Below, piece by piece: positions 32,581-54,205 of a DNA stretch of 64,000 nt. Origin of the DNA: a virus (Duplodnaviria; Caudoviricetes); the IMG/VR virus record IMGVR_UViG_3300027007_000012, positions 1 to 64,000 of that record; one strand, 5' to 3'. Numbering within the stretch: position 1 is the first letter of the stretch; each line of letters opens with the position of its first letter. A program made the translations under genes and the position numbers. The notes under the pieces were generated by a model that worked only from the letters and a program-made list of their open reading frames with translations, did no database searches and had not been told where the DNA came from.

Positions 32581-32624
32581 ACCCGGCATGGTGCGTCGTG
32601 GGGGTTCGAGTCCCCCACCGGGCA
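32581..32624 (+). ncRNA. Miniature tRNA-like element A
   Basis: CCCG/CGGG stem, GCA-TGG-TGC mini arm, GTGGGGG-TTCGAGT-CCCCCAC T-arm; no anticodon arm. Confidence 0.6.
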
Positions 32625-32669
32625 TGGGCCGAGAAAAGTCGGGACTGGCCCACCCGAACGGAGCAACCG

Positions 32670-32975
32670 ATGAGTGTAGACGACGCGCCCGCTGAGGAGC
32701 GGGCACTGATAGAGGAGCACCGCAACGAGATCGCCCGAACCGCCGTCGACGACGCGGTCGAACTGTACGACCTGGTCTCGCGTGTCGGGTTCATCGCCGA
32801 GGACGCCGCCGCCGAGCTCGAGTTCGTCGACGAGGACGAGGGGTCGCTGGCGGATGTCCGTCTGGCCCTGGACATGCTGGACGAGATGGACAACGCACTC
32901 GTGTACATGAACCGACAGAAGCGCCGCGTCGAGGGCCTGTTGGAGGAGCTGGCGCACATCGAGGAGGACCTGTAG
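32670..32975 (+). CDS. Coiled-coil hypothetical protein
   Basis: GGAG RBS, ATG 32670, acidic heptad pattern. Confidence 0.65.
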   Translation: MSVDDAPAEERALIEEHRNEIARTAVDDAVELYDLVSRVGFIAEDAAAELEFVDEDEGSLADVRLALDMLDEMDNALVYMNRQKRRVEGLLEELAHIEEDL

Positions 32976-33148
32976 ATGCCGTCGACATCGATCGAGGTGG
33001 CGGGTGACGTCGTCAAGGCCCGGTACTTCGGCGAGGCGGAGGGTGACTACGCGAAGCTGGTCGTCCACCGCGACCTGTTGGCGAACGAGGATGAGGCAAC
33101 GCGCGTCCTCGACGAGATGCGCGACACGATCGCCCGGGAGGGCCGCTG

Positions 33149-33346
33149 ATGCACGACACGTGCCAGTGCGAGGAGTGCAAGCTGGAGCGCCAGCGCGAGT
33201 ACGAGGCGTCGTACCCCGAGCAGGCGCGCCGGGACAAGCTGGAGTTGGGTGCCGAGGCGACGACCGAGTTCGCCCGAGAGGAGGCACTGCTGCTGAAGAC
33301 TGGGATGACCGAGCGCGATGCGCGGGCCCGGGGGCTGATCGACTGA
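33149..33346 (+). CDS. Small Cys-containing protein
   Basis: CQCEEC; part of a chain of coupled small ORFs from 32976 to 33513. Confidence 0.55.
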   Translation: MHDTCQCEECKLERQREYEASYPEQARRDKLELGAEATTEFAREEALLLKTGMTERDARARGLID

Positions 33347-33509
33347 TGACCGCGATGGATGACCTGCGCGTCGAGCGTCAGCACTCGCGCTACGCGATCG
33401 CGCTGGAGAACGTCGAGGCACTCGCGCACGACGGCCTCGAACAGACCAGCGCGAAGGAGAAAGACGAGATCCTGCGCGAGATCGAGGCGGTCGCGACGGG
33501 GGCGTTCGA

Positions 33510-33938
33510 ATGAGCGAAGTGTCGAAGAAACGCGCAGCTGCGATGTTGGAGTTGCTCGATAAGGACGAGACGATGAGCGAGGGACACGACGACTCGACCG
33601 ACCCGGAGTGTTGGCGGGAGTCGTTCCTGGAGAGCGCGTTCGAGGAGGCGGTGTCGATGGTGACCCAGGCGTCGATGGCCTACGACGAGGAGCACGGAGA
33701 GATGAACGACCAGCCGCACCCGATGGACGTCATCCGTGGGGAGAGCCTGTTGCGCGTCTACGCGACGAGTCGACCGTGGGCGGTCCCGGTCGTGGTGGTC
33801 GAGGTCGCAGAGGCGCCGGCGTACTTCGAGAACGGCATGCTGACCGATGTGCGGGAAGTGTACGCCCGGCGGAAGCCGGGGCTGTCGGCCGACCCGACGC
33901 ACGTGAAGATCCAGATTCGCCAGGGGCGGTCCCGATGA
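33510..33938 (+). CDS. Hypothetical protein
   Basis: 142-aa acidic coupled ORF. Confidence 0.6.
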   Translation: MSEVSKKRAAAMLELLDKDETMSEGHDDSTDPECWRESFLESAFEEAVSMVTQASMAYDEEHGEMNDQPHPMDVIRGESLLRVYATSRPWAVPVVVVEVAEAPAYFENGMLTDVREVYARRKPGLSADPTHVKIQIRQGRSR

Positions 33939-34240
33939 GCGGCGCGACGCGACAACCCTGTGACGTCCGGGATTCGGTGGCCGAGATGTCGACGGAGTCG
34001 CTGCTGTTCCAGACGGCGATGACCGACGCCTACGGGGGTGAGGTTGCCGACCTGATCGACTGGGAGCTGGACAGAGAGATGCGACACGAGCTCGCCTCAC
34101 GCGGGGTCGAATGGTAGTGTACGCGATGGTGACCCTGATCGTCTGGTTGGGTGGCCTGCTCGCGTGCTGGATGGTGTACAGAGCGGCGGTTGGAACGATA
34201 GACCACAGACAGTCATGAACAGAGACATGGAGGACGACAA

Positions 34241-34501
34241 ATGGTGAACTGGGGCGGGCGGTACCCGCCAGGAGCAGCGAACGACCCGGCGGCACCGTAC
34301 AACGAGCCGGAGATGCCCGAGCCCGGGACCGTGATTACGCACGACGTCTCGGAGGCGTACTGCGCGGACTGTGACGAGACGGTCGGGCCAAACAGCCCGG
34401 ACGTCGTCGCGGACATCCTGCTGGACGAGCACCACGGACACCAGGTGGAGGTCGAGTCGTGGACGGAGGAGGAAGTCTGGGGAGGCGACGATGCCCGGTA
34501 G
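34241..34501 (+). CDS. Zinc-binding hypothetical protein
   Basis: CADC ... EHHGH; GGAGG RBS. Confidence 0.6.
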   Translation: MVNWGGRYPPGAANDPAAPYNEPEMPEPGTVITHDVSEAYCADCDETVGPNSPDVVADILLDEHHGHQVEVESWTEEEVWGGDDAR

Positions 34502-34980
34502 TCACGAGCGCCACCTGGACGAGTTCGGTATCTGTCAGTGTGGCCCGTCGCGATCGGGGACGGAGCCGATGGCGCTGGAGTACCAGGATGACATGACCGG
34601 GCGGTGGGTGACCGAGCAGGTGCCGGCCTGCGCCGACTGCTTCGGGCTCTTGTAGCCCGGACGCCCTTTCCGCTTCTGCGCGCCGCCCGCGACGACCCTG
34701 GTTTCCGGTCCAGGCCGAAATAGTAGAGATTCTGATTATATGCAGAACCCGAGAGATGAATACAACTCGCCTCAGCGGCACACACGAGGGTCTCCCGGCG
34801 ACCAGTTTTCTGGGGTCTCACCCCCCACCCTCTCCATGTCGCAAACGACCGTCCACGGGCCGCGTTCGCGGCGTCTACGCACGATTTTCGAAGTTCTCAT
34901 TTTATGCCTTTTGCTCATCGGCGAACCCTGGTTTCTGCTCCGCGAGCCCCGGCACCGCATCCCGGCGCATGTAAGATAAT

Positions 34981-35050
34981 AGAAACATTTAATATCGTAC
35001 CAGACCAAGTATACATTGGACATCGAGAAACCGATGGCCAGCTGGAGTGT
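34981..35050 (+). promoter_or_regulatory. Early promoter-hairpin module 2
   Basis: ATAATAGAAACATTTAATATCGTACC; hairpin TGGACATCG-AGAAAC-CGATGGCCA; CTGGAGTG. Confidence 0.75.
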
Positions 35051-35057
35051 CAAAGAA

Positions 35058-35516
35058 ATGGCGAAAACGACCAACGCGGCCGGCGCACAGCAGACGAGCA
35101 TCGCGAGCGACGCGGACCTCGTCGACCCCACGCAGCACGTGGTGGGGTTTAACGACAAGACGATGAAGCGCGCGAAGTGGGAGGAGTACGACTTCGTGGT
35201 CACGGACACCGGGAACGTGCAGGTCCGGAACGCTTCGTATGGGGACGACGCAGACGCGCACACGTACCACGTGGTGACCGACGCGTCTGGCATCCCGAAG
35301 TGGTGCCTGCACGCACTCGAGGACGACCACGAGGACGACTGGGCGCCATGCCCGGCGATGGCCTACCACGCAGCGAGGAAGAACAAGGAGACGGGCCTCG
35401 ACACCGAGGAGCTGATCGCCAACGGCGAGTACCGTGTCTGCAAGCACGCCCTCGCGTACGCCCGGAACGAAGCGATCGTCCAGGCCGTCCGCCGGGTCAA
35501 GGGAGGCGACAACTGA
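35058..35516 (+). CDS. SWIM zinc-finger protein
   Basis: YHV ... WC ... CPAMAYH ... CKHALA. Confidence 0.7.
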   Translation: MAKTTNAAGAQQTSIASDADLVDPTQHVVGFNDKTMKRAKWEEYDFVVTDTGNVQVRNASYGDDADAHTYHVVTDASGIPKWCLHALEDDHEDDWAPCPAMAYHAARKNKETGLDTEELIANGEYRVCKHALAYARNEAIVQAVRRVKGGDN

Positions 35517-35764
35517 TGAGCACCGTCGAGGTGCTGAACGACCACGGGACGGTCCAGTACCGCGAGCACGACCTCCAGGTCCGGCGCGTCGACGCGGCGT
35601 CGGCGGGCTACGACACCGGGTTCGAGAACGAGTTCGAGCTCCTGGTCGACGACGAGGTCGTCGCGACCGCGACCGAGATCGAGGCCGAGGGGTGGAAGAA
35701 TCCGTGGGCCAAGTCACTGCGCCTGTATGGGAAGGCGTTCGTCGACGGGAGGCTGGACGGATGA
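35516..35764 (+). CDS. Hypothetical protein
   Basis: Coupled acidic ORF. Confidence 0.6.
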   Translation: MSTVEVLNDHGTVQYREHDLQVRRVDAASAGYDTGFENEFELLVDDEVVATATEIEAEGWKNPWAKSLRLYGKAFVDGRLDG

Positions 35765-36093
35765 GCCGTTTCATCCAGGCCATGCGTGCAGAGTTCGGGC
35801 ACGAGGATGCCCGGAGCAACGAGGACTACCGAGCGCCCGTCCGCAAGGTGTACTACGAGGTCGACGGGACGCGACTCCGCGCCACGGTCGTCGGGGCCAC
35901 CGACGAGGAGGCGCGACAGACGTTCGACGAGCTCGCGACCGCTGAGGGACTCGACACCGCGGAGGTCACCGAGATCGTCCCGACCGACGCCCAGATCGCG
36001 GACCTGGACGACCGACTGTACAGTCACGTGCACCGCAAGGCGTCGCGCCGGGACCACGGTGCGCTGAACGCCGCGTTCAACGGGGGCGAGTGA
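35761..36093 (+). CDS. Hypothetical protein
   Basis: Coupled acidic ORF. Confidence 0.6.
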   Translation: MSRFIQAMRAEFGHEDARSNEDYRAPVRKVYYEVDGTRLRATVVGATDEEARQTFDELATAEGLDTAEVTEIVPTDAQIADLDDRLYSHVHRKASRRDHGALNAAFNGGE

Positions 36094-36476
36094 TGCGGGC
36101 GCGATCGCGGCGCTGGATGGTCGTCACGGACCCGGACACGGACTGCGAGTCGCCGGTGTTTCGCCGCATCCCGTCGAAGTTGGAGGCGCACAAGCTCGCA
36201 CAGTTGACGGTGCGCGCCTACGACGATGGGACCAGCGCCGGCGTTGTGGAGGACCTCGGAAAATGACGGGGGACGTTCGCCGACGAGAGCACGTCTACGG
36301 GAGGGGGCGGCTCGTCGTCTACGAGGGGAACCCGAACACGTCGACAGCGTTCGTGGCCGGGAAGCCGGTCCCGAACGAACCCTGACAGTTTCTGTTTTTG
36401 CGCGCCGCCCGCGTCGTCGATTCACCCAGACCGCACTGGATGCCACCAGCAGCGGCTCTCGCCCCACATATGACAG

Positions 36477-36556
36477 ATAATAGAAACATTTAATATCGTA
36501 CCTGTCATAGTATAGTATAGGTTACTGAGGGAAACCTCGGTGCCCACCTGGAGTGA
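36477..36556 (+). promoter_or_regulatory. Early promoter-hairpin module 3
   Basis: Same 26-nt promoter as module 2; hairpin ACTGAGG-GAAA-CCTCGGT; CTGGAGTG. Confidence 0.75.
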
Positions 36557-36560
36557 AAGA

Positions 36561-38225: not shown

Positions 38226-38250
38226 GCGGCCGGTCGCGGCAACCCGGAAC

Positions 38251-38297
38251 GGCGTCGGTTTTGGCGTGATGCTGCGGATCGAATCCGCTCGACGTCC
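38251..38297 (+). ncRNA. Miniature tRNA-like element B
   Basis: GGCGTCG/CGACGTC stem, TGG-containing linker, GCGG-ATCGAAT-CCGC T-arm. Confidence 0.5.
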
Positions 38298-38570
38298 TGG
38301 CGGCCTCCGCTACTGTCAAGTGGAGTGACCGCCTACTCCCGCCTGGATGGGTCGGTTCCGTCTGTGGTAGGCGGCTCGGCCCGTCCCACTCCAGGTGGCC
38401 ACGGCGTTCGCGATCGGGCTGGCTCCCTCGGGAGTTAAGTGGTCGCGGCCGCGGGCACCGAGCCCGTGTCACCTTTCGTACTGCTTCCCTGATACCCCGT
38501 ATGTACGTACGTACGCGCCCATACGTACAGACGCGCATTCTCACCTTCCTTACCTGTCAGAGTTCAGTAA

Positions 38571-38635: not shown

Positions 38636-38638
38636 AAC

Positions 38639-39904: not shown

Positions 39905-40270
39905 ATGACTGACGACGACGACCGACTCCCGCCGGACGCGGTCCCGGACCCGTCGGTTTGGATGCCCCCGGACGTGGTGGTCAGCAAGGAGACCGCCGAG
40001 GTCGCGCTGCGCGAGCTCGACATCCTGATTGAGCACACGGGCGGCCCGGACACGGCGGTCGAGGACTGCTGCTCGCCGCTGGCGCTCGCGTACGACCGGG
40101 TCGAGAGACTGGAGGGCGAGGGGATCGACCCGTTCACCGTGGGGACGGTCCTGCAAGTGTTGGTCGGTGTCGGTGAGGAACGAGGCGTCGACCTGTCGGG
40201 GGAGGACCCGTTACAGGACGACGTGTTCCAGGCGAGGAGCGAGTTCAGGGACGCACTCGGCGTCGAGTAG
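39905..40270 (+). CDS. Hypothetical protein
   Basis: Acidic coupled ORF. Confidence 0.6.
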   Translation: MTDDDDRLPPDAVPDPSVWMPPDVVVSKETAEVALRELDILIEHTGGPDTAVEDCCSPLALAYDRVERLEGEGIDPFTVGTVLQVLVGVGEERGVDLSGEDPLQDDVFQARSEFRDALGVE

Positions 40271-40287: not shown

Positions 40288-40337
40288 GCATCGCTGCTGG
40301 TGGCATTCCGAGCTCGGTTCGATTCCGAGGCGATGTG
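40288..40337 (+). ncRNA. Miniature tRNA-like element C
   Basis: GCATCGC/GCGATGT 7-bp stem, TGC-TGGTG-GCA mini arm, CTCGG-TTCGATT-CCGAG T-arm. Confidence 0.65.
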
Positions 40338-40644
40338 TGGCTCCCTGGCCGGAGACGATACGTTGATAGGCTGGTGGAGCCTATGTCTGCACGACATCCC
40401 ATAGTGGATGTCGTTCCGTTCGGGTGGGATAGCACGCGTCGGGCTGTCTCGGCAAGGGCAACCACGCAAGTCGAGATCAGAGGCTCGTGCATACCCGTTG
40501 TCCGGGGCTTTGTCCCCGGACGCCCTTTGTGACCCTGAGCGCCAGCTCTCAGTTTTCGCGTATCCTGTCAGTATCCTGCGGGGCCGGTCGCGCTAACCCG
40601 GTACCCATGCTACGGTCCACAACTATCAACAATATTAGTTGTCA

Positions 40645-40705
40645 TAAATATTATTATATCCCTACCCTGAGTAGTATAGAATATGGGAAAATCAAAATCC
40701 CACTC
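40645..40705 (+). promoter_or_regulatory. Early promoter-operator-hairpin module 6
   Basis: TTATAT, CTACCCTGAGTAG 40662-40674, ATG 40683, TGGGA-AAATCAAAA-TCCCA. Confidence 0.8.
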
Positions 40706-40823
40706 GAGCGGTGAGCGCGTGAACAAGCGGCGGTACCGCGGGAGCGAGCAGACCGAGAGCTTCGACCTGCAAGCAGAGCTCGCCAAACTCGGCGGCGACG
40801 AGGAGGACGAGGACGATGAGTGA
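40683..40823 (+). CDS. 46-aa peptide, basic N-terminal half and acidic tail
   Basis: MGKSKSHSSGERVNKRRYRG...DEEDEDDE (not in the ORF track); followed by coupled ORFs 40816-41420. Confidence 0.55.
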   Translation: MGKSKSHSSGERVNKRRYRGSEQTESFDLQAELAKLGGDEEDEDDE

Positions 40824-41416
40824 GCGAGCGTACCGAGAGCCGGCCAAGTTCTCGGCCGACGAGCTGTCAATCGGCGATGAGATCGTGGTCGCCGGCCTCG
40901 TCCACGAGGTCCTGTCCGTGGGCGAGCCCGGGAAGCAGTGCCTGGTCCGCACGGACCGAGGGGCGTTCTCGAAGGACGGTCTGAGCAGTGGCATCGACGA
41001 CGGCTCCGTGGAGGTCCTTGGGGGAGGCGACGATGGGCGCTGACTTCGGTCCTGTCAACGTGCGCTGGGAGGGGCCGAACGGGGACGTCCGCAACCGGGA
41101 GTTCGCACAGCACGGTCTGTCGACCGGGTGGATCGTCGGCTACGATGAGGACGACAATGCCGAGCGGAAGATACCGCGGAACCGGGTCTACGAAGTGGAG
41201 GTGCTCTGAGATGAGCGAGAGGGTCGACGAGATCAAGCGCCGGATCACGGGTGTGGACCTCGTCGAGATCTGGGTGAGTGAGGGCGACCGACTGTTACTC
41301 GGCATCCAGCCCTACGCCGACGCCGACGGGGAGGCTGTCGCGCACTACCTGGAGCGACTGTTCGACGCACGCATCGAGCGGGTCACGTACGACTTCGTCC
41401 TCGCCGAGGTGGCCCG

Positions 41417-42019
41417 ATGAACTTCGACGAGATGAGTCCGGCCGAGATCGACGACCTGTTCCAGGTCGAACCGCAGCACGACCCCGAGTTCCAGATGGAG
41501 CGAATGCGCGAGCAACTGGAGTACGCTGGCTGGGACGCGATCGAGGGGCTCGTCGACCCCGGGGACGAGTACGTCGTCGAGGAGTCGCACCTGCTGACGC
41601 CCGACCCGCTCGACTACACCGACTTCGAGTGGACGCTCGTCTACCGCGAGAAGCACGTCTTCGACGTCATCGACCCGTTCGACAGCACGCGAGGGGTGAT
41701 CCCCGCCAGTCGGGATGGCGAGGACATGATGCAAGCGTTCGGGGAGTTCGCCGAGGCGTTCCACCTCGAGTGCGAGATCGACAAGTTCCACGATGAGCTC
41801 GGAGAGATGGAGCCCGGGGAAGTCGTCCTGCTCCCGAGCGGCAAGCTCCGCATGGACACGAGCGACCGGATCGTCGTCTACAACCCGATGTACGAGCCGG
41901 TCGTGACGACCGACCCGGAGAACGTCACGGTCGAACTGGTCGAGAGTATCATCGACGACTGGCGGGCTGAGATGCGCGAGAAGTACGAGGGGACGCCGAT
42001 GGAAGACCAGTTCGACTGA
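41417..42019 (+). CDS. Hypothetical protein
   Basis: 200-aa strongly acidic ORF. Confidence 0.65.
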   Translation: MNFDEMSPAEIDDLFQVEPQHDPEFQMERMREQLEYAGWDAIEGLVDPGDEYVVEESHLLTPDPLDYTDFEWTLVYREKHVFDVIDPFDSTRGVIPASRDGEDMMQAFGEFAEAFHLECEIDKFHDELGEMEPGEVVLLPSGKLRMDTSDRIVVYNPMYEPVVTTDPENVTVELVESIIDDWRAEMREKYEGTPMEDQFD

Positions 42020-42087
42020 CCGCGCCCGTTTTCGCGCACCGCCCGCGGCGAATGAGTTATCGACATCGAGATAGTATCGAGTAGCAG

Positions 42088-42594
42088 ATGGGATCGCGAC
42101 CGTGGGAGAACCCCGTCACACTCGCCCGGGCCTACGCCAAGCATGGCTCGGCCGAAGGCGTCGCCGACGCGTGGGGGTGTTCCGAACGCACGATCAGGAC
42201 CTGGCTGCACGAGCACGACGAGATCCGCGTCCAGCGCCAGGGTCGCCGGCCCTCGTGGGAAGACGACGACCCGGCGAATCACGTCCTGGAGGACGACGAG
42301 GGCTACGAGATCGTCGAATCGTTCGTCCCGGTCCGCGATGAGTCAGGCGAGCTCGTCACGATCGAGCGCAAGACCGTTCGTATCCACCGTCTCGTCTGCG
42401 TGGCCGAGTGGGGCTTCGACCAGGTGGTCGACCAGGAGGTGCACCACATGGACGGGCACAAGGTGCACAACACGCGGGAGAACCTGATCCCGTTAGACCC
42501 GAAGACGCACGGGTTTATGGACCCGGCGCGGCGCTGGCGGATGCCCTGGGTCGGCGATTACGAACTGGGCGATCCTGGCCCTGCTGGCGACTGA
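42088..42594 (+). CDS. HNH endonuclease with N-terminal HTH (homing endonuclease-like)
   Basis: VRIHRLV ... VHHMDGHKVHNTRENL ... H; HTH AEGVADAWGCSERTIRTWL. Confidence 0.85.
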   Translation: MGSRPWENPVTLARAYAKHGSAEGVADAWGCSERTIRTWLHEHDEIRVQRQGRRPSWEDDDPANHVLEDDEGYEIVESFVPVRDESGELVTIERKTVRIHRLVCVAEWGFDQVVDQEVHHMDGHKVHNTRENLIPLDPKTHGFMDPARRWRMPWVGDYELGDPGPAGD

Positions 42595-42616
42595 CCCGTG
42601 GGCTTTTGCTTTCGAC

Positions 42617-42707
42617 GTATCCCCGCTCGCTTTCTGTCGGCGGGTATCCCTGCTCGTTTTCGGCGGTTGCGTATCCCTGCTCGCTTTCTGACACCGCGTA
42701 TCCCTGC
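42617..42707 (+). repeat. 27-bp tandem repeat, about 3.4 copies
   Basis: GTATCCCTGCTCGCTTTC-like units start at 42617, 42644, 42671, 42698. Confidence 0.85.
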
Positions 42708-42784
42708 GGGCCCCGGCACCGCTTCCCGGTGACCAGACCATGCGATGCTCGGAAACTCACAGCAGTCCAAGCCGCTTCGCGAGT

Positions 42785-42841
42785 CTCTAATACCCTACCC
42801 TGAGTAGCATAGAATGAGGAACAAAAATTCCTCACCCGAAC
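42785..42841 (+). promoter_or_regulatory. Early promoter-operator-hairpin module 7
   Basis: CTACCCTGAGTAG 42795-42807; hairpin TGAGGAA-CAAAAA-TTCCTCA; CCCGAAC. Confidence 0.8.
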
Positions 42842-42845
42842 GACC

Positions 42846-43085
42846 ATGAACGCAATGGAAGACGTAGAAGGACTCCGTTACACCTTCTGCAACGTGTGGC
42901 TGGAATCGAACTCTCAAATCTCGCACATAATGGTGAACAAAGGTGGTGAAGATGTGTGGGAGGAGACGCCAGAGACAATACTCGTCAACAATTCGATATT
43001 CGAAGGCGAGTGCTACTTCCGAGATGTGATGAAGGTGGTGCTCGAACCACGAGAAGACGAGATCAACGTCAAGATCAACCCCTGA
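42846..43085 (+). CDS. Hypothetical protein
   Basis: 79 aa; ATG overlaps the stop of an 11-codon leader ORF starting at 42814. Confidence 0.55.
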   Translation: MNAMEDVEGLRYTFCNVWLESNSQISHIMVNKGGEDVWEETPETILVNNSIFEGECYFRDVMKVVLEPREDEINVKINP

Positions 43086-43204
43086 CGGCAACGAGATGGG
43101 GCTCCCCATGTGAGCTCCCGTTTTTGCGCGACGCCCGCCGCCCACGACTATCCCAGACCATGCGATGATCTTCGATTCCCAGCAGTTCCAGCCGTCTTAC
43201 GCGT

Positions 43205-43259
43205 CTTTATATCACTACCCTGAGTAGTACAGAATGGGAACAAAAATCCCAACCCGAAC
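43205..43259 (+). promoter_or_regulatory. Early promoter-operator-hairpin module 8
   Basis: TTTATA, CTACCCTGAGTAG 43215-43227, TGGGA-ACAAAAA-TCCCA, CCCGAAC. Confidence 0.8.
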
Positions 43260-43451
43260 GATGAGCTACGCAACCCACGTTCAGATTCAGAAGCTGAAGC
43301 GAGCGAGAAACGAGAGTCGCTGGCCCTCGGACGAGAGAGAAGACGACGAGTAGAGCCGACGCCGACTCTTTCCATTTTCGAGCGCCGCCCGGCGTGACCC
43401 ACCGGCGTTCCCGATGTGAACGTTTCCAGACAATATCAGCCGCTAAACGTG

Positions 43452-43506
43452 TCTTTAATACCCTACCAGTGGTAGTATAAGATATGGGACAAAAAATCCC
43501 AACCCA
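43452..43506 (+). promoter_or_regulatory. Early promoter-operator-hairpin module 9
   Basis: TTTAATA, CTACCAGTGGTAG 43463-43475, ATG 43484, TGGGA-CAAAAAA-TCCCA. Confidence 0.8.
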
Positions 43507-43985
43507 GCGGAACTGAGTGTAGAGAGTGTGCGAATAGAGGGAGAGAGTGGAGAAAAGACACTACGAGTGCACAGTGTGCGTATAATAGAGGGAGAGCTCA
43601 TCGTGAGAGCCTACGAAGATTTCCCACTTCACTCTGACATCTGAGTGAGTGGGAGAGCGGTCCACCGTTTTTGCGTGCGGCCCGTCGGCCTCGAACCCTG
43701 ATTTCCGGTCCACGAGATGATTTTGCTTCCTTGCAGCACCTGAGAGGCGAATACAACCCGTCTCAGCGAGGATCTCGAGCGCCTCACGGCGACACGTTTT
43801 CTGAGCTACAACCCCCTCCCTGTGGACGGTGCAAACGACTGTAATCGACTGTCAGCAGCGAGCTCACACGTGCATATTCGAGTGCCTCAGTGTATGTAGA
43901 ATAACGTATACGACGAACCCCTGTTTCTGCTCCACGCGGGCCCGCTCGCAGCATCCCGGCACCGTCTCTCTTGCCGCTTCGCTGA

Positions 43986-44044
43986 TATTTATTACCCTAC
44001 CCTGAGTAGCTATAGATATGGGACAAAAAAATCCCAACCCGAAC
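43986..44044 (+). promoter_or_regulatory. Early promoter-operator-hairpin module 10
   Basis: TTTATTA, CTACCCTGAGTAG 43997-44009, ATG 44018, CCCGAAC. Confidence 0.8.
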
Positions 44045-44395
44045 GACGAGAGCGACGAAATCCTCCCGGCCCTCGACCACCGAGGACTGACGGGACACGG
44101 CAAGAAACGACTCGACGAGAGCGAGCTCGTCACCCCGTACCTCGTGCAGACGCTCCAGGACGCTGACCCGACCATCCTCCGAGCCATCTGTCAGGTGGCC
44201 GATGCAGCAGCGTCGGCACGGTACGCACCGATCCAGAACCAGCTGGCCAAGGACGAGAGTGCCAGCCGAGAGATTCAGCAGGAATACTGGAACCAGCTGG
44301 ACGACGTGAAGGGGCTCTCGCTCCTCTGCACGGAACTCCTGCGAGACCAGAGAGACGGCGTCCCAACCGAGGAGGACCCCCGACTCGGCTTCTGA
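44018..44395 (+). CDS. Early hypothetical protein
   Basis: 125 aa, starts MGQKNPNP. Confidence 0.65.
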   Translation: MGQKNPNPNDESDEILPALDHRGLTGHGKKRLDESELVTPYLVQTLQDADPTILRAICQVADAAASARYAPIQNQLAKDESASREIQQEYWNQLDDVKGLSLLCTELLRDQRDGVPTEEDPRLGF

Positions 44396-44715
44396 ACACG
44401 GGAACCGACCCAGGGCTACCGATTTCGCGCCACGCCCGTCGTGAAAACCACCGCACCGATGCCACCAGCAGCGCCGGCCCCGGCGTGAATCGTGCACATC
44501 GCGACCAGTGTGCCTCGACGAGCGGCGACCAGGTTTCGCGAGTGGAACCCCTACCCCGTAGACGCCGCCAACGAACCTCCGAGAGCTGGGCCAGATCGCC
44601 GTCGTGAAGGGCCGTCGTATCAGGTGTGAATACTTGCGGGCCCCGGCACTGAATCCAGGGACACAGCGGCTATGCGATGCTCTGGAACTACCAGAGTTAT
44701 CAGCCGTTTTACATA

Positions 44716-44773
44716 CCTTAAATACCTCACCCTGAGTAGCTAAGAATATGGGAAAACAAAATCCCATCCGAAC
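44716..44773 (+). promoter_or_regulatory. Early promoter-operator-hairpin module 11
   Basis: TTAAATA, TCACCCTGAGTAG, ATGGGA-AAACAAAA-TCCCAT, CCGAAC. Confidence 0.8.
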
Positions 44774-45026
44774 CGGCGAGCAGTGCGGCAAACACGACGT
44801 CGTGGCCTTCGTGGCCCTCGCTGCGGACCCCTCGTGGGTCGATGCACCGACGAACCCGGTCACGCCGGGTAACGGCACCGAGGACTGGGCCGCCGACATC
44901 GAGGGCGCCGACGGGGGCGTGATCATGAGCGACTGGTCTTCGCTGGCGGGTGCGGGCGCGATCGACCCCCTGTCGGGACGAGAGCTGAGCGATGAGGAGC
45001 TGCGAGAGAGGCTGGGGGTCGAGTGA
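44748..45026 (+). CDS. Early hypothetical protein
   Basis: 92 aa, starts MGKQNPIR. Confidence 0.6.
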   Translation: MGKQNPIRTGEQCGKHDVVAFVALAADPSWVDAPTNPVTPGNGTEDWAADIEGADGGVIMSDWSSLAGAGAIDPLSGRELSDEELRERLGVE

Positions 45027-45399
45027 GATGCTGAGCCCCAACGGCGATACGGCGCGGATCGATGCGCACGAGTGCGAGCTCGAGCCGACCGGCCGCGGAG
45101 AGGGGATGCACGAGGAGTTCGAGTGCCGAGTCTGTGGGACGGTCACGACGCCCGCTGTGGGCGTCCGGCGAGCGAAGCGGCAACGGCTCTGGTGAGGGCC
45201 AGCCCCTCGTTTTCGAGTGCGTGTACGTACGTACGAGCGGGTACGCACAGACGGGTGGTGGGACCATAGCTTCCGCTTCTGCGCGCCGCCCGCGACGGCC
45301 ACCGTCCCCGACAGCCAACGTAGCATCTATGCGCGCTACTCGACAGAGAAACTTAAATTCGGGCTCCTCTGGGCTTCTACGCAAGTTTTACAACCGAAG

Positions 45400-45460
45400 T
45401 CTTTATATCTGATACCTGAGAAGTCTTAGATATGGGACAAAAAATCCCAACCCCCGAACG
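45400..45460 (+). promoter_or_regulatory. Early promoter-hairpin module 12
   Basis: TTTATA, CCTGAGAAG, ATG 45432, TGGGA-CAAAAAA-TCCCA, CCCGAAC. Confidence 0.75.
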
Positions 45461-46495
45461 GAGCGAGAGCGAGACGAGAGCAGCAGAGGAGGGACGATGA
45501 TGCGCCCCGAGTCGCCGATTGAGTGGACTGGCGAGGCCCACCTCGTCACGGTGAGCTGTAGCCGCTGCGGGAGCACGATGAGCGTCGACGAAGATACGGC
45601 GCTCTGGTACGACGAGCAGGGACGCGAGCACGTGTGCGAGGAGTGTGAGTGAGATGCGCCGAGTGCGTACGATGCTGCTGGCCGCGAGAGTCGTCGCTGG
45701 GATCGTCGTGTTCCCGATCGCGCTGACCGCCGCGAGAGCTCGGGCCCGGGTGGTCTGATGAGCTGTCTCGATTGCGGGTCGACGTCGCTGGCGAGCGAAC
45801 GAGTGGACGTGGTCGGGCGCCCCGACGAGCGGGTGACGTACTGCGAGAACTGTGGAGAGGTGCAGTACGTGGATGTGATTCGATGATTACGCTGCTGGTG
45901 GCATTGGTGGTTGCCGGGCTGGGCGTGTGGGCGTTCCTGCTGATCGCGAGGGAGCTGTAGCGATGGACTGGTGCCCGGAGTGCGGGTCGATGGCCCGCGT
46001 CGACGAACGACGGTTGGAGCGCCAGGACGACAGCGCGCTCGCCAAGGAGGTGCTCGACGTCGTCTGCATGCAGTGTGAGTACGAGGGCGAGAAGCGTCGC
46101 ACAGTGCCCGCCGTGTTCGAGCGGCGGCCAGCAGAGACGGGGCGGGGCGTGAGCGAGCGCGAGCCGGGTCACCCGCTCGACCGCTGAGCGCCCCGGTTTC
46201 GCGTTCCGCCCGCGCCGACCCCTGTTTCCGGTCCACGAGCAAATAGAGTTCGCGACGCGTGTGCATACGCTCGTCTCAGCACGATCCCCCAGGGCCTCAC
46301 GGCGACGGGCTCCTCGGGCCATCACCCCTCCCCTGTGGATGTTGCTCACGACTGACTGGGAGCACACGAACGCACGCCTCAGCGCCTCTACGCGCACTTT
46401 CTGTCTGGGGATTTATCATTGGCTTCGACCTTGATTTCCGCTCCACGCGGCCGGACGCGGCAACCCGGCACCAGAAGTATCAGCCGCTTTACATG

Positions 46496-46553
46496 ACTAT
46501 ATACCTGTACCATGAGTAGCTAAGAATATGGGAAAACAAAATCCCACCCGACC
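46496..46553 (+). promoter_or_regulatory. Early promoter-operator-hairpin module 13
   Basis: TATATA, GTACCATGAGTAG, ATG 46528, TGGGA-AAACAAAA-TCCCA, CCCGAC. Confidence 0.8.
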
Positions 46554-50381: not shown

Positions 50382-50756
50382 ATGAGTGAGAAAGACCCGA
50401 TCAGGCTGGTCGAGATACTCGAGGACGAGAAGCTCGACTTCGTGGTCTTCCAAGATGGTGAGGAACAGACACTGTTCGACAGCTTCGGTGAGGCGGTCGA
50501 TAACATCCTGAACGTGGTCGGTCTGGACGTTGGCATCGTCCAGGCTGTCGGTGGTGGCGCATCACGGCCGGTGTACCTCTCGGTGGATGGCGTTATCGAG
50601 ACGCTCCTGGAGAAGACGCCGGATGACGACGAGGTCGTCGTCTCCCGAGAGCTCCTCGCTGACACGGCCGATGCGATCGTATCGGCGGGTGCAGAACCGA
50701 GTGAGTCGGAGAAGGCCGTGGTCGACGCGATCAACGAGGTGTTGGCGGATGAGTGA
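50382..50756 (+). CDS. Hypothetical protein
   Basis: Acidic coupled ORF. Confidence 0.6.
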   Translation: MSEKDPIRLVEILEDEKLDFVVFQDGEEQTLFDSFGEAVDNILNVVGLDVGIVQAVGGGASRPVYLSVDGVIETLLEKTPDDDEVVVSRELLADTADAIVSAGAEPSESEKAVVDAINEVLADE

Positions 50757-51174
50757 TGACTACGTCGCGACTTACGCACTCGAGCTCAAACGAGACGTCG
50801 GCGAGATGACCGCCTGGTATCAGGTTGAAGCGAAGGGAGACGTTGATCTCGACGAGGCTGATCTCCGCGAGATGGGAGTCGAGACGGTCGAGGAAAACAT
50901 CCCCGAGGTGCCCGTCGACGAACTGGTCCTCGCGTTCGCCGAGATGACGGAACTGGAAACGCCGGCGTACACGTTCGAGTTCTCGGCGAAGGTCGACTAC
51001 CACGCCGACGACAACGACTGTCACGGCATCGCTGTTGGTGGCACCCTCGACGATGATGGGGACCTCCGTCTCACGGTCTACCGGACGGAGATGGACGGCA
51101 TCGACGTGAGCAAGCCGAAAACAGTCGACAGGGTCCTGCTCGACGACGTGAAGTCGGTGGTGGACGATGAGTAG
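50749..51174 (+). CDS. Hypothetical protein
   Basis: Acidic coupled ORF. Confidence 0.6.
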   Translation: MSDDYVATYALELKRDVGEMTAWYQVEAKGDVDLDEADLREMGVETVEENIPEVPVDELVLAFAEMTELETPAYTFEFSAKVDYHADDNDCHGIAVGGTLDDDGDLRLTVYRTEMDGIDVSKPKTVDRVLLDDVKSVVDDE

Positions 51175-51508
51175 CACAACGAACGGACAGGTCCAGCGGG
51201 GGTCCTCGTCGTTTTCGAGCTGGTGGGAGATCGAGCTCGAGATCCCGTTCGAGATGGCGATGGACGCGTACTTCGTCTTCCGTGAGTCGAGCCACAAGTG
51301 CTCGGACCGGATGGCGAACGCGCTGTACTACGGCCTGAAGATAGCGAACCACGAGCGGTCGGACGTGGTGGAGGTCGACGTCCAATACTGGGACAAGGGA
51401 TGGCGAACCTGGCTCCTGAAGACAGCCAACATGCGACCGCACTACGCATCGGACCCTGAGCAAATCAAGAACCTGGAGGAGCTGACTGACCTGCTGGAGA
51501 ACATCTGA
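51167..51508 (+). CDS. Hypothetical protein
   Basis: Coupled ORF, 113 aa. Confidence 0.6.
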   Translation: MSSTTNGQVQRGSSSFSSWWEIELEIPFEMAMDAYFVFRESSHKCSDRMANALYYGLKIANHERSDVVEVDVQYWDKGWRTWLLKTANMRPHYASDPEQIKNLEELTDLLENI

Positions 51509-51700
51509 TGTCGGTCCAGGAGACGGGGACGTGTCCTTACTGTGACATCAACCTTAAACGGACGGGGACGGCCTTCGGAGAGTTCGACTCGGCGGTGCTG
51601 TTCACGTTCGAGGGCCACATCGTCTTCGAATGCCCGGACGTACCCCCAGAGGCACGGGCATACTTCGATGAGGGAAACAGTCATACCTCTCAGAAGTGAA

Positions 51701-52087
51701 ATGTCAAGTATGAGTTTCGAGAAGTACAAGGGGTCGAGCCGTGGTCGGAAAACGATCAGTCACCCAAGTGTTAAAATCTGGTCGTCCGGGAAGATCGCCT
51801 TCAACGACATGGCGATGGACGAGTGGCTCGACGGCGCTGAGTACGTCGCGATATTCACCCACAGCGATCTCCCCCAGGTGGGGATCGGACCTGAGACGAA
51901 GTCCAACTCTGGTCTCCCTCACGTATACGCGCTCCACACACAGGGGACGTATCAGGGAAAGCTTCTCCAGGTCAAGAAGTTGCTTCGCGATCTCGACTGT
52001 GTTCGACCGGACGAATCCCTCGAGCTCGACGCCTGGTACGACGACGATCAGGAGCTAACGGTCGTCGACCTGTCCCCGCTGACGTAA
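51701..52087 (+). CDS. Hypothetical protein with basic N-terminus, possibly nucleic-acid binding
   Basis: FEKYKGSSRGRKT ... VKIWSSGKIAFN. Confidence 0.55.
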   Translation: MSSMSFEKYKGSSRGRKTISHPSVKIWSSGKIAFNDMAMDEWLDGAEYVAIFTHSDLPQVGIGPETKSNSGLPHVYALHTQGTYQGKLLQVKKLLRDLDCVRPDESLELDAWYDDDQELTVVDLSPLT

Positions 52088-52102
52088 CCCCCACCCCCGA
52101 GA

Positions 52103-52171
52103 GGCCGAATACAGGTCTCCGGGAGCTGCGCCCTTCTGGGATTCGGGTCGGTTCGATTCCGACCAGGGCCA
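52103..52171 (+). ncRNA. tRNA-like element D (imperfect acceptor stem)
   Basis: Perfect GTCGG-TTCGATT-CCGAC T-arm followed by CAGGGCCA; the 5' GGCC pairs only partly. Confidence 0.45.
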
Positions 52172-52252
52172 TGTGCGCCACCCACGCTGGCGCCCAAGAA
52201 ATCGCGTGTGGAACGGAGAAGGATATGAAACAGACACAGGAGGCGCGGTGAC

Positions 52253-52624
52253 ATGGACGTCATCGTCACTGCGTACGGAAACGACCCGAAGCTGGTCACA
52301 AAGGCCGACAGCATCGTCAGAGACGGCTACCGACCGGATGTGTGGGTCCTCTGCGAACAGCTGCTCGGAGAGAACGACGACGACATGGTGATCCAGTTAC
52401 GCAACGACGAGGGAGACAACTGGCTGGTCGACGAGAAGGGGCTCAGGACGGCTGTACTCCAGCAGGATTGTATCTACGTCACGGTCGAGCACGAAACAGA
52501 AAACGCGGTGTTGCTCGATCTGTACGGCGCCGGTACTGTCGACGGACTCTCGATGCGGAACACGGTCGGCGAGGTGTGGCTTCCCCGGAGTCAGATCACG
52601 TCGTTCGAACTGAAGGACGATTGA
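52253..52624 (+). CDS. Hypothetical protein
   Basis: 123-aa acidic ORF. Confidence 0.6.
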   Translation: MDVIVTAYGNDPKLVTKADSIVRDGYRPDVWVLCEQLLGENDDDMVIQLRNDEGDNWLVDEKGLRTAVLQQDCIYVTVEHETENAVLLDLYGAGTVDGLSMRNTVGEVWLPRSQITSFELKDD

Positions 52625-52644
52625 CACCACCCCAACGATAGACC

Positions 52645-53181
52645 ATGCTACGCCAAAACGCAACTGGAGAGGCCGACGTAAACACGCTGGAACTAACGAT
52701 CACTGACGGTCACCCACTCGACGCGGTTGCGGCCGCGCTCGATGCCCTGGGGGTGACAGAGGATCGTGTTGTCACCGCACAGATAGCCGTCACCTACGAA
52801 ACGGAGGTCGAGACGGTCGAGCCCGTTATCGAGACGAACGGTCAGGATGATAGTGAGGACGTCGAGCTCGACATCAACGCTGTCGAGACGTGCTCGATCT
52901 CGTACGGGAGTCAAGCCTACGCGATCCTCAAGCACCTGGAGGATGTCACGGACGGTAACGAGTGGGCGACCACACGGGAGATCGCTGAACGACTCGGGGA
53001 TGGGGAGAAAACAACGGCGGTGAGTGCTCAGGTTTCGAAGTGGAACGAACAGAACCTCGTCGAGAGAGCACCACGCGACGACATCCCGCAGAAGTCGTAC
53101 AAGTACAAGATCACCCTGCTGGGGCGCGAGGCGCTTCGTCGATCAGAACACGAAGAAGAAACCCGACAACCAGTCGTATAA
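52645..53181 (+). CDS. Winged-HTH transcription regulator
   Basis: ILKHL ... TTREIAERL ... VSAQVSKWNEQNLVER ... YKYKITLLGREAL. Confidence 0.7.
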   Translation: MLRQNATGEADVNTLELTITDGHPLDAVAAALDALGVTEDRVVTAQIAVTYETEVETVEPVIETNGQDDSEDVELDINAVETCSISYGSQAYAILKHLEDVTDGNEWATTREIAERLGDGEKTTAVSAQVSKWNEQNLVERAPRDDIPQKSYKYKITLLGREALRRSEHEEETRQPVV

Positions 53182-53194
53182 CACATGCACCCAG

Positions 53195-53500
53195 ATGCCA
53201 CCAGAAGCGGGAGGAATCGTGAGCAGTAAACGCGCCGGTCTGTCTCCGAAACAGCTCGGGGCACTCACCAGAGGGGGACTCGTCGAGGTCGACGACGGGA
53301 CGCGTCGCTCGGTCGAGCTCTATTGTGAACAGGATGATGCCGAGGTGTGGTCTCGGATTGCCACCACAGACGGTGGCGAGGAGTTGACGGTCCTTTCGTT
53401 CCCGGAGGATGTCTGGGAAGACGTTCTCGACGTACTGGGCGTCGAGGATGGCCGAGACAAGATCAAGGTCGGGTCGATGGTGTGGGTACAGCGCGGCTGA
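53195..53500 (+). CDS. Hypothetical protein
   Basis: Likely start at the motif ATG (MPPEAGG...); a reverse motif copy lies just after the stop. Confidence 0.55.
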   Translation: MPPEAGGIVSSKRAGLSPKQLGALTRGGLVEVDDGTRRSVELYCEQDDAEVWSRIATTDGGEELTVLSFPEDVWEDVLDVLGVEDGRDKIKVGSMVWVQRG

Positions 53501-53809
53501 CGTTTCTGGTGGCATCCAGGTGATGGGTCGATATTAAAAATTCTTATAGTTGCCAACTTCTCGAAATAAGAGATCTGTATAGAAGAGGCGTTTAAACCTG
53601 TCTGAAGGGCTTATCTGTGAGGTAATCCGAAAGTTATAATGAGTTGGGGGACCGAGTGTATGTTACCAGATATGGGTACACAGATGGGGGCGGTCGACAC
53701 GCTGTTGATCACCCCGAACCCCCACGAGACACGAACGCACTACGAGCTCCTCGAGATCGGGCGCGAGGAGTTCCATGGAACTGTTACAGTCGTTGGACTG
53801 GCGTCGTAG

Positions 53810-54205
53810 CCCGGCGAGACGATCTTCGAGCCATGATCCCCACCCCCGAGACATCGAAACCACGTGCCCGAGGCCCGGTAGCGGGTCGTGGGCTGGCAAA
53901 AGTGATCGATCATGGTGGATATGGCGGACAAGCGTCCGTAGTACCATACTATGTTGGGCGCAGTTCTAAATACTCTGCACCCATATACGATTATACGGGC
54001 AAGTGCTCTGGTCCATTCACAGACCAGCGTATGCGCTCGTTAAACTGGGTAGCTGCAAGCGACCCCTTTCGGAACGCGGGGCGACTTACCTGGGGAGGTG
54101 TCGTTCCCGTTCGCTTGCAGTTTTCGTACAGTAACGCCCGTGAGACTGGTGTCTCACGTCCTGTTCGATTCGGGACACGGGCATCACCCGACTGGGTGAG
54201 GTTCT
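53810..54205 (+). ncRNA. Candidate large structured ncRNA ending in miniature tRNA-like element E (54136-54183)
   Basis: Stems GCTGCAAGCGA/TCGCTTGCAGT enclosing two hairpins, CTGGTC/GACCAG, GCCCGT/ACGGGC with GAGAC-TGGT-GTCTC and GTCCTG-TTCGATT-CGGGAC. Confidence 0.55.

What the first reader, a model, noticed from the sequence alone, without database searches (positions are those of the whole stretch)
32581..54183. Five miniature tRNA-like elements (acceptor stem, T-arm and GG mini-loop, no anticodon arm) between gene blocks
Seen at 32581-32624, 38251-38297, 40288-40337, 54136-54183 and, more weakly, 52103-52171. Each has a T-loop (TTCGAGT, TTCGATT or ATCGAAT). In the first four the acceptor plus T stems total about 12 bp (7+5, 6+6, about 4+7), and a TGG sits in a short D-like arm. 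All are intergenic, sense-strand and just downstream of stop codons or structured regions. Established: RNase P, tRNase Z and the CCA enzyme measure the 12-bp acceptor/T coaxial stack and the D-T elbow, and Haloferax tRNase Z cuts a tRNA-like structure upstream of 5S rRNA. Inference: the virus uses tRNA mimics as processing signals that punctuate polycistronic transcripts (mascRNA/t-element-like), or as decoys for tRNA-targeting defence nucleases.
Basis: partly seen in the sequence, partly recalled or inferred. Interest (0 to 1): 0.88.

Follow-up and report, generated by a model that had tools for sequence, protein, structure and literature searches.

The report
Mini-tRNA cutting signals in a halovirus
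This virus of salt-loving archaea carries several conserved 40-50-base RNA structures that copy only the top half of a tRNA, of the same design as the host element that tRNase Z cuts to mature 5S rRNA, so they most likely tell host tRNA-trimming enzymes where to cut long viral messages; no cutting has been shown.

Summary
Four of the five sites (32581-32624, 40288-40337, 52129-52171, 54136-54183), plus a sixth site outside the window (genome 71793-71832), are anticodon-less mini-tRNAs. Each has a 5-7 bp acceptor stem running straight into a 5-bp T stem, a TTCGANT loop, and an 8-26 nt linker with an invariant GG. All lie on the sense strand. About 0.4 such sites are expected by chance on both strands together.

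They are conserved in two syntenic relatives and in metagenome contigs, with many compensatory changes. The 38251-38297 site is a conserved Y-shaped structure, but its loop is a TCGAA pentaloop, not a T loop.

A covariance model built only from the viral copies finds full-length matches in 18 of 101 Haloferacaceae genomes. In four of these genomes (five loci) the match sits between 23S and 5S rRNA and ends at or 1 nt before the 5S 5' end. That is the position of the t-element that tRNase Z cuts in Haloferax volcanii.

Best reading: these are t-elements that direct RNase P and tRNase Z cuts in polycistronic viral RNA. No RNA data could be obtained, so cleavage is inferred. The decoy idea is not supported.

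The kind is known; the viral families look undescribed in print. This scan has reported the same kind in other haloviruses.

The parts
32581..32624 (+). E1 mini-tRNA. Acceptor 5' 32581-32587, linker with TGG 32588-32599, T stem/loop/stem 32600-32616 (loop TTCGAGT), acceptor 3' 32617-32623, discriminator A 32624.
   Evidence: The relative G001 keeps it with T stem G-C>T-A on both sides, an A>G change that restores pair 7-66, and an 11-nt linker indel. Model R1 scores 43.3 bits, but it is a seed member.
32625..32652 (+). Hairpin starting directly after the E1 discriminator, followed by GGAG and the ATG at 32670.
   Evidence: fold, -12 kcal/mol; conserved in G001.
38251..38297 (+). E2: conserved Y-shaped element that is not a true T-loop mimic. 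7-bp outer stem (38251-38257 with 38290-38296) and inner 5-bp hairpin with pentaloop TCGAA (38274-38288).
   Evidence: Inner stem pairs covary in the Halorarum plasmid (A-T>G-C, G-C>C-G, C-G>G-C). Not found by R1.
38298..38480 (+). Conserved non-coding stretch after E2, ending in a terminator-like hairpin plus CTTTC, upstream of the next promoter-like cassette (38563).
   Evidence: Three-genome alignment; repeat families D9 and D12.
40288..40337 (+). E3 mini-tRNA, 17 nt after the stop codon at 40270. 7-bp acceptor, 18-nt linker containing CTGGTGG, T arm CTCGG-TTCGATT-CCGAG, discriminator G.
   Evidence: Acceptor pair 7-66 C-G>T-A in G001; pairs 3-70 and 4-69 change on both sides in the plasmid. 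RNAalifold predicts the acceptor and T arm on its own.
40338..40530 (+). Structured non-coding RNA candidate starting right after the E3 discriminator and ending in a hairpin plus CCCTTTG. Contains a 34-nt block that is identical in all three genomes.
   Evidence: 75 predicted pairs in the alignment, which includes E3; 11 keep pairing through changes on both sides.
52129..52171 (+). E4 mini-tRNA. 5-bp acceptor (52130-52134 with 52165-52169) inside a 7-nt frame, linker with TGGG, T arm GTCGG-TTCGATT-CCGAC, discriminator A.
   Evidence: The plasmid copy changes both end pairs of the acceptor on both sides (G-C>T-A, T-A>G-C). It was not in the R1 seed but is found at 22.7 bits, and at 25.4 bits in G001. 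RNAalifold confirms only the T arm.
52172..52196 (+). Hairpin with a C-rich loop right after E4, followed by GGAACGGAG; the next gene starts at 52253.
   Evidence: gene calls on near-identical contigs.
53985..54125 (+). Conserved structured leader upstream of E5. It has a hairpin with several compensatory changes, the invariant blocks AACTGGGTAGCTG and ACCTGGGGAGGT, and a long stem ending in a T run.
   Evidence: Five-lineage RNAalifold.
54136..54183 (+). E5, the best mini-tRNA. 7-bp acceptor, D-like hairpin AGAC-TGGT-GTCT (54143-54154), 4-nt variable-loop-like connector, T arm (loop TTCGATT 54164-54170), discriminator A.
   Evidence: Five lineages: 96.4% of cells paired, 6 pairs changed on both sides, slid controls 28-58% paired with 0-1 such pairs. 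RNAalifold recovers the same fold.
54184..54199 (+). Invariant 6-bp hairpin (TCACCC/GGGTGA) starting at the first base after the E5 discriminator, 12 nt before the ATG at 54212. This gene heads the block that leads to the terminase.
2434..4315 (+). Cluster of nine genuine tRNA genes (comparators) next to the integrase gene at 795-1901.

Best explanation
The elements are t-elements: tRNA-derived 'top halves'. Each has an acceptor stem stacked on a T arm, plus a short GG linker that can dock on the T loop to make the tRNA elbow. They are transcribed as part of long sense-strand viral RNAs.

Host RNase P would cut at the 5' side of the acceptor, and tRNase Z would cut after the discriminator. This separates the upstream cistron from what follows.
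- At E1, E4, E5 and E6 the downstream product would begin with U plus a stable hairpin, followed by a Shine-Dalgarno-like GGAG and the start codon. That gives a defined, protected mRNA 5' end.
- At E3, and perhaps the variant E2, the cut falls just after a stop codon. It would release a roughly 200-nt structured non-coding RNA, as the host does for 5S rRNA.

Shown here: the fold, its conservation and covariation, the strand and position bias, and that the design matches host elements abutting the 5S rRNA. Inferred: transcription, the two cleavages and their consequences.
For: 1. Enrichment and strand bias: 5 sites on the + strand, 0 on the - strand, against 0.36 expected on both strands.
2. 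Conservation in syntenic slots of an IMG/VR provirus at about 80% nucleotide identity, in a Halorarum halophilum plasmid, and in metagenome contigs.
3. Covariation. For E5, 96.4% of cells pair and 6 pairs change on both sides. Across families, 93.2% pair against 37-52% for slid controls, with 41 cells changed on both sides. RNAalifold independently returns the fold for E5, E3 and E6.
4. G-U pairs occur in 9 of 17 copies. They pair only in + strand RNA, not on the opposite strand.
5. GG is invariant in every linker, and the first base after the discriminator is T in 17 of 17 copies.
6. Model R1, built only from viral copies, finds full-length matches of about 36-44 bits in 18 of 101 Haloferacaceae genomes. 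Five loci in four genomes lie between 23S and 5S rRNA and end at or 1 nt before the 5S start. Most of the other hits sit 18-45 nt before start codons and are followed by a small hairpin, like E4 and E6.
7. Literature: the H. volcanii element upstream of 5S rRNA is cut by tRNase Z. [quoted passage not shown] Plant mitochondrial t-elements define mRNA ends (PMC1920247). Long halovirus transcripts are thought to be processed by unknown means (PMC8707807).
Against: There is no transcript or end-mapping data for this virus.

From my memory of the abstract of Hoelzle et al. 2012 (Biochimie; not held here, not verified): other tRNA-like elements predicted in H. volcanii were not cleaved in vitro, so resemblance does not guarantee cutting.

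Several copies have an A.C or other mismatch at pair 1-72, or only 5 acceptor pairs. E4's acceptor was not recovered by RNAalifold.

E5 seems to have its own promoter-like TA-rich box about 150 nt upstream, so punctuation of a long transcript is not needed there.

Covariation rests on 3-5 lineages per family.
Confidence: 0.6

Rival explanations
1. The elements are functional RNA structures that act without being cut out as punctuation. For example, they could cap the mRNA they stay attached to against exonucleases. They could recruit or titrate host tRNA-binding proteins (CCA-adding enzyme, modification enzymes, synthetases, aEF1A). Or they could act as decoys for defence or toxin enzymes that attack the acceptor end of tRNAs.
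For: The conserved elbow features (T loop plus GG) are what many tRNA-binding proteins read (established knowledge). E2 and E3 sit right after stop codons, where a 3' protective structure would make sense. The virus invests heavily in tRNAs: 9 genes here, 16 and 31 in the relatives.
Against: The same design abuts the 5S rRNA start in host genomes, where the known role is cleavage. There is no anticodon arm, so anticodon nucleases cannot be baited. No viral gene pointing to tRNA repair or charging was seen among the roughly 30 larger ORFs scanned.
Confidence: 0.2
2. They act at the DNA level, as recombination or secondary attachment sites derived from tRNA genes that promote module exchange or integration.
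For: The virus encodes a tyrosine integrase, and its relative is integrated in a 320-kb contig. One extra element in the relative (G001 69692-69737) lies at the edge of a 1.2-kb insertion absent from this genome. Halovirus attP sites are tRNA fragments (PMC8707807, PMC7230728).
Against: The integrase gene is at 795-1901, far from all the elements. Each element carries both acceptor strands rather than only a 3' tRNA part. The G-U pairs and compensatory changes preserve RNA pairing on one strand only. All copies are co-oriented with genes, and most host copies sit a fixed short distance before start codons.
Confidence: 0.07
3. They are neutral debris of decayed tRNA genes.
For: The T arms of E3 and E4 are identical to those of the relative's real tRNA-Gly(TCC) and tRNA-Glu(TTC) genes, consistent with an origin from tRNA genes.
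Against: They are retained in syntenic slots across lineages with only 65-80% flank identity. Both-side compensatory changes occur in every helix. GG and the T loop are invariant while linkers vary in length.
Confidence: 0.03

Closest known systems
Haloarchaeal t-element: the tRNA-like structure directly upstream of 5S rRNA in Haloferax volcanii (Hoelzle et al. 2008 and 2012, as cited in PMC4326828, PMC3296008)
   Same: Acceptor stem stacked on a T arm, short GG-containing linker, no anticodon arm, and the 3' border abuts the 5' end of the downstream RNA. A model built from the viral copies alone retrieves the elements at that position in four Haloferacaceae genomes at 37.9-42 bits.
   Different: The viral copies are in a virus genome, 5-6 per genome, mostly in front of protein genes or just after stop codons. 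They form several families that are each conserved. Cleavage is untested.
Plant mitochondrial t-elements (PMC1920247)
   Same: Non-canonical tRNA-like structures carrying the GGTTCRANYCC T-arm motif, placed in mRNA leaders or trailers. Their borders coincide with mRNA ends made by RNase P and RNase Z.
   Different: Different domain of life and different enzymes (protein-only RNase P). The plant elements are less uniform. No evolutionary link is implied.
[quoted passage not shown]
   Same: A sense-strand tRNA-like element at the head of the packaging/structural genes: 17 nt before the TerL ATG in HF1. E5 similarly heads the block leading to the terminase. Its function is acknowledged as unknown.
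   Different: The HF1 element is full length (71 nt) with an anticodon-like arm. Only its T arm matches R1 (16.7 bits). The viruses are unrelated at the terminase level.
MALAT1/MEN-beta mascRNA and the mitochondrial tRNA-punctuation model (from my own knowledge)
   Same: A tRNA or tRNA mimic embedded in a long transcript is cut by RNase P and RNase Z, which creates the ends of the neighbouring RNAs. E3 sits directly after a stop codon, as mascRNA sits at the end of MALAT1.
   Different: mascRNA keeps a cloverleaf with an anticodon-like arm. These are eukaryotic nuclear or mitochondrial systems.

Membership tests
Haloarchaeal t-element (tRNase Z / RNase P processing signal) | Acceptor-like helix coaxial with a T arm (about 11-12 bp), no anticodon arm | tested here: met
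   17 copies have a 5-7 bp acceptor directly adjoining a 5-bp T stem. Searches give the pair counts.
Haloarchaeal t-element (tRNase Z / RNase P processing signal) | Same sequence-structure profile as the elements that abut the 5S rRNA 5' end | tested here: met
   R1, built from viral seeds only, hits five loci in four genomes between 23S and 5S rRNA at 37.9-42 bits. The hits end at or 1 nt before the Rfam 5S start. The 5S leader of the Halorarum genome itself has a variant loop (ATCGTTC) and was not matched.
Haloarchaeal t-element (tRNase Z / RNase P processing signal) | Cleaved by tRNase Z after the discriminator and by RNase P at the 5' end | not testable with these tools
Haloarchaeal t-element (tRNase Z / RNase P processing signal) | Transcribed in sense as part of a longer RNA | tested here: inconclusive
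   Only indirect evidence: all copies are on the gene strand, G-U pairs are valid only on that strand, and the copies lie between stop and start codons. No RNA data.
Canonical tRNA gene | Cloverleaf with D arm and anticodon arm, detectable by tRNA models | tested here: not met
   ARAGORN finds only the nine tRNAs at 2434-4315. Rfam RF00005 gives no match in 30000-56000 even at E<=10.
attP / tRNA-fragment integration site | A 3' part of a tRNA gene next to the integrase gene | tested here: not met
   The integrase is at 795-1901 and the elements are 31-71 kb away. They carry both acceptor strands and occur 5-6 times. Identity to a host tRNA was not tested.
T loop (tRNA positions 54-60), applied to E2 | 7-nt loop T-T/Psi-C-R-A-N-N closed by the G53-C61 pair | tested here: not met
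   The E2 loop is TCGAA. The would-be loop positions 54 and 60 (A and T) covary to G-C in the plasmid copy, so they form a base pair.
Hammerhead or other self-cleaving ribozyme in the same slots (lead from earlier notes of this scan) | Rfam ribozyme match in this virus or its relatives | tested here: not met
   Rfam gathering-threshold scans of G000, G001, positions 60001-148857 of the plasmid and two metagenome contigs gave tRNAs only.

The most novel reading that the evidence does not exclude
The excised 40-50-nt mini-tRNAs are themselves effectors or regulators rather than mere by-products. After CCA addition they would form an abundant pool of elbow-bearing RNAs that competes for host tRNA-binding enzymes or acceptor-end-targeting defence toxins. 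Alternatively, cutting at E5 is gated by the conserved structured leader in front of it, so that t-element processing times late (packaging) gene expression.
Probability: 0.12. Interest if true: 0.85.

Novelty: new member of a known kind. Interest (0 to 1): 0.6.

Why it matters
How haloarchaeal tailed viruses turn very long primary transcripts into the 0.5-9 kb RNAs seen on Northern blots is unresolved (PMC8707807). Conserved 'tRNA-like sequences' in haloviruses have been flagged as unexplained (PMC7230728).

These elements give a concrete, testable mechanism: the virus borrows the host's RNase P and tRNase Z. The work also yields a covariance model that finds the same signal in front of host genes, which suggests that t-element punctuation of mRNAs is more general in haloarchaea than the single 5S rRNA case. 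Compact, natural, sequence-diverse t-elements would also be useful parts for the Haloferax crRNA-expression toolkit, which already relies on one such element.

Tried and rejected
- ARAGORN and Rfam, including E<=10, see no tRNA at the sites.
- Megablast and blastn against the phage collection found no relative. The terminase finds only distant bacterial phages.
- The Halorarum plasmid is not in the plasmid collection. It was reached through the genome search instead.
- An exact-pattern scan of IMG/VR for E5 found only the known relative.
- The second IMG/VR contig and the 320-kb metagenome contig are identical to G001 and add nothing.
- Treating E2 as a T-loop mimic was rejected.
- The attP reading was rejected on position and anatomy.
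- Hammerhead ribozymes in equivalent slots, a lead from earlier notes of this scan, were not found in this lineage.
- R1 finds no further convincing copies in the three genomes. The weak hit at 42521-42571 (16.3 bits, E=2) scores no higher than the partial matches to real tRNAs.
- For E4, RNAalifold pairs the 3' GGG with a distant invariant CCC rather than the local strand. I keep the local pairing because its two end pairs change on both sides in the plasmid copy, but this is the least secure acceptor.
- Hoelzle 2008 could not be read here.


Full report
**Setting.** The window is the first 64 kb of an 88,656-bp single-contig virus genome with 59% G+C. It has a tyrosine integrase (795-1901), nine real tRNA genes (2434-4315), DNA ligase, family B polymerase, a helicase, a methylase/SNF2-PLD island, an intein-bearing large terminase (55732-58491), ThyX, DpdA and an intein-bearing ribonucleotide reductase. 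That is a temperate tailed haloarchaeal virus. Almost all genes are on the + strand.

- E1, 32581-32624
- E3, 40288-40337
- E4, 52129-52171
- E5, 54136-54183
- E6, at genome 71793-71832, beyond the window

E2 (38251-38297) fails the T-stem test. Neither ARAGORN nor Rfam, even at E<=10, calls any of them a tRNA.

**Relatives.** Flanking proteins led to:
- an IMG/VR provirus of 89.6 kb (G001), about 80% nucleotide identity, syntenic, with 16 tRNAs;
- a 148.9-kb plasmid of Halorarum halophilum (CP058532.1), whose 46-127 kb part is syntenic at the protein level and carries 31 tRNAs;
- short, lower-G+C metagenome contigs.

E1, E3, E4, E5 and E6 are present in the same slots in G001. E3, E4, E5 and E6 are present in the plasmid. 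E5 is also on three short contigs. G001 has one more element (E7, 69692-69737) at the edge of an insertion that this genome lacks.

**Anatomy.** Seventeen copies were parsed by coordinates. All share these features:
- a 7-nt acceptor frame with 5-7 pairs; C2-G71 holds in the 13 copies tabulated (E7 differs), and pair 1-72 is often A.C;
- an acceptor 3' strand that starts directly after a 5-bp T stem;
- the loop TTCGANT (once TTCAACT);
- an 8-26 nt linker, always containing GG and nearly always TGG;
- a T as the first base after the discriminator in 17 of 17 copies, followed within 0-3 nt by a hairpin.

Only E5 has a true D-like stem (AGAC-TGGT-GTCT) plus a connector of 3-5 nt, about the size of a variable loop. 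G-U pairs occur in 9 of 17 copies. They would be A.C mismatches on the other strand, so the selected structure is + strand RNA.

**Covariation.**
- E5, five lineages: 96.4% of cells pair, and 6 pairs change on both sides. Slid controls give 28-58% pairing and 0-1 such pairs.
- Thirteen copies of four families aligned together: 93.2% paired against 37-52% for slid controls, with 41 cells changed on both sides; 0 of 500 shuffles reach this.
- RNAalifold, given only the aligned flanks, returns the acceptor plus T-arm fold for E5, E3 and E6.
- For E4, RNAalifold returns only the T arm. The local 5-bp acceptor is supported by both-side changes at both of its end pairs in the plasmid copy.
- Linker indels of 11 and 4 nt show that the stretches are not coding.

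**E2.** E2 is conserved in all three genomes. However, the A and T that would be loop positions 54 and 60 covary to G-C, so its loop is TCGAA. One or two unpaired bases separate the inner hairpin from the 7-bp outer stem, and the GG is not conserved. It is a related-looking Y structure, not a T-loop mimic.

**What class is it?** I built a covariance model (R1) from 13 viral copies, with only the acceptor and T-arm pairs annotated.
- In the three virus-like genomes it finds the unseeded E4 copies (25.4 and 22.7 bits) and E7 (24.1 bits).
- Real tRNAs reach only 15-19 bits.
- All hits above 20 bits are on the + strand.

I then ran R1 on 101 genomes of the family of the Halorarum genome (Haloferacaceae). 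It gives full-length matches of about 36-44 bits in 18 genomes, including that genome's own three plasmid copies. Five loci in four genomes lie between 23S and 5S rRNA, and the match ends at or 1 nt before the 5S start defined by Rfam. That is the position of the H. volcanii tRNA-like structure that tRNase Z cuts to make the 5S 5' end. [quoted passage not shown]

Most of the other host hits sit 18-45 nt upstream of start codons, followed by a small hairpin. The genes encode secreted DUF1102, VWA or camelysin-like proteins. Some hits occur two or three in a row between consecutive genes. This is the same layout as viral E4 and E6.

The Halorarum chromosome's own 5S leader has the same architecture, a 5-bp acceptor plus a 6-bp hairpin and a GG linker, but with a non-consensus loop.

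**Context in the virus.**
- E1, E4 and E6 lie between a stop codon and the next gene. Each is followed by a hairpin, a GGAG about 10 nt before the ATG, and no room for a promoter.
- E5 lies in the 400-nt gap before the gene at 54212 that opens the block leading to the terminase. It sits downstream of a conserved structured leader that ends in a T run, and directly upstream of an invariant hairpin 12 nt before the ATG.
- E3 follows a stop codon by 17 nt. After it comes a roughly 200-nt conserved, structured, non-coding stretch that ends in a terminator-like hairpin before the next promoter-like cassette. E2 has the same placement.
- HF1-group haloviruses have a full-length aberrant tRNA-like element in sense, 17 nt before the terminase start. 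It has been flagged as unexplained (PMC7230728).

**Mechanism proposed.** The elements are t-elements embedded in polycistronic viral RNA. RNase P cuts 5' of the acceptor and tRNase Z cuts after the discriminator. The downstream RNA then starts with U plus a hairpin, either as an mRNA with a protected 5' end or, at E3, as a non-coding RNA, as with 5S rRNA. The conserved T loop and GG would build the elbow that both enzymes read (established knowledge).

Everything after 'the fold is conserved and of the t-element class' is inference. No RNA data were available. As far as I recall, Hoelzle et al. 2012 found that other predicted tRNA-like elements of H. volcanii were not cut in vitro; I could not check this.

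**Rivals.**
- An RNA-level role without punctuation (stabiliser, protein sponge, decoy) remains possible.
- A DNA-level recombination or att role is unlikely given position, anatomy and strand-specific pairing.
- Neutral tRNA debris is excluded by covariation.
- An origin from tRNA genes is plausible: the T arms of E3 and E4 equal those of the relative's tRNA-Gly and tRNA-Glu.

**Novelty.** The kind of element is known from the Haloferax 5S t-element and from plant mitochondrial t-elements (PMC1920247). I found no paper describing conserved families of them in archaeal viruses, or in front of haloarchaeal protein genes, in four literature searches.

Earlier notes of this scan report the same kind of element in several other haloviruses, and a note on an overlapping window of this genome lists six. 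I reached my reading before seeing them. Their lead that hammerhead ribozymes fill equivalent slots does not hold in this lineage.

Noticed in passing
window, about 25 copies, e.g. 7814, 14767, 61749, 62981 (+) and 4571, 11366, 18013, 30617, 36453, 44472, 60380 (-): A 15-mer, GCTGCTGGTGGCATC, occurs about 30 times in the whole genome at <=2 mismatches, on both strands. It is often just upstream of start codons. It contains the E. coli Chi octamer GCTGGTGG. One copy forms the E3 linker, and one lies directly upstream of E6 in reverse orientation. Function unknown.
   Followed up: partly
window 32565-32586, 38226-38247, 40580-40601, 46447-46468: The 22-mer GCGGCCGGTCGCGGCAACCCGG follows the stop codons before E1 and E2, where the two copies are identical. 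Copies with 1-3 mismatches sit just upstream of two promoter-like cassettes. In E1 its last bases form the acceptor 5' strand.
   Followed up: partly
window 40338-40530: Structured non-coding RNA candidate after E3. It has a 34-nt block (GTTCCGTTCGGGTGGGATAGCACGCGTCGGGCTG) identical in all three genomes and several covarying hairpins. No Rfam match.
   Followed up: partly
window 53985-54125: Conserved structured leader before E5 with the invariant blocks AACTGGGTAGCTG and ACCTGGGGAGGT and a long stem followed by a T run, in five lineages. It could be a regulatory leader or a small RNA.
   Followed up: partly
window 55732-58491 (insert about 56058-57172): The large terminase carries an intein (Intein_splicing/LAGLIDADG hits on near-identical contigs) that the relative G001 and the Halorarum plasmid lack. 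The ribonucleotide reductase (genome 82041-86111) also has Hint/intein domains.
   Followed up: partly
window 40625-46551 and 34969, 36470, 38563, 48213: Repeated promoter-like cassettes: a TA-rich box, then CCCTGAGTAG, then a small A-rich-loop hairpin. They head many short early genes. GTACGTACGTAC-type repeats lie near several of them (2228, 30641, 38495, 45215, 55666).
   Followed up: no
Halorarum plasmid G002:C4 57400-57480 (in locus L022): Inside the 31-tRNA cluster there is a tRNA-like gene whose anticodon-arm equivalent has only a roughly 5-nt loop. ARAGORN does not call it.
   Followed up: no
loci L039, L043, L046, L051, L052 (Haloferacaceae genomes): Host copies of the mini-tRNA sit 19-45 nt before genes for secreted DUF1102, VWA or camelysin-like proteins, sometimes before two or three neighbouring genes in a row. 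This suggests t-element punctuation of host operons.
   Followed up: partly
window 21639-29163: Two very large genes: an Eco57I-like N6-methylase of 1387 aa and a PLD-SNF2 helicase of 1122 aa. They have lower third-position G+C than their neighbours and look like an acquired defence or anti-defence island.
   Followed up: no
locus L010 (Ga0207771_100008): The relative G001 lies inside a 320-kb metagenome contig, so it is an integrated provirus. The IMG/VR cut coincides with the start of the integrase gene.
   Followed up: no
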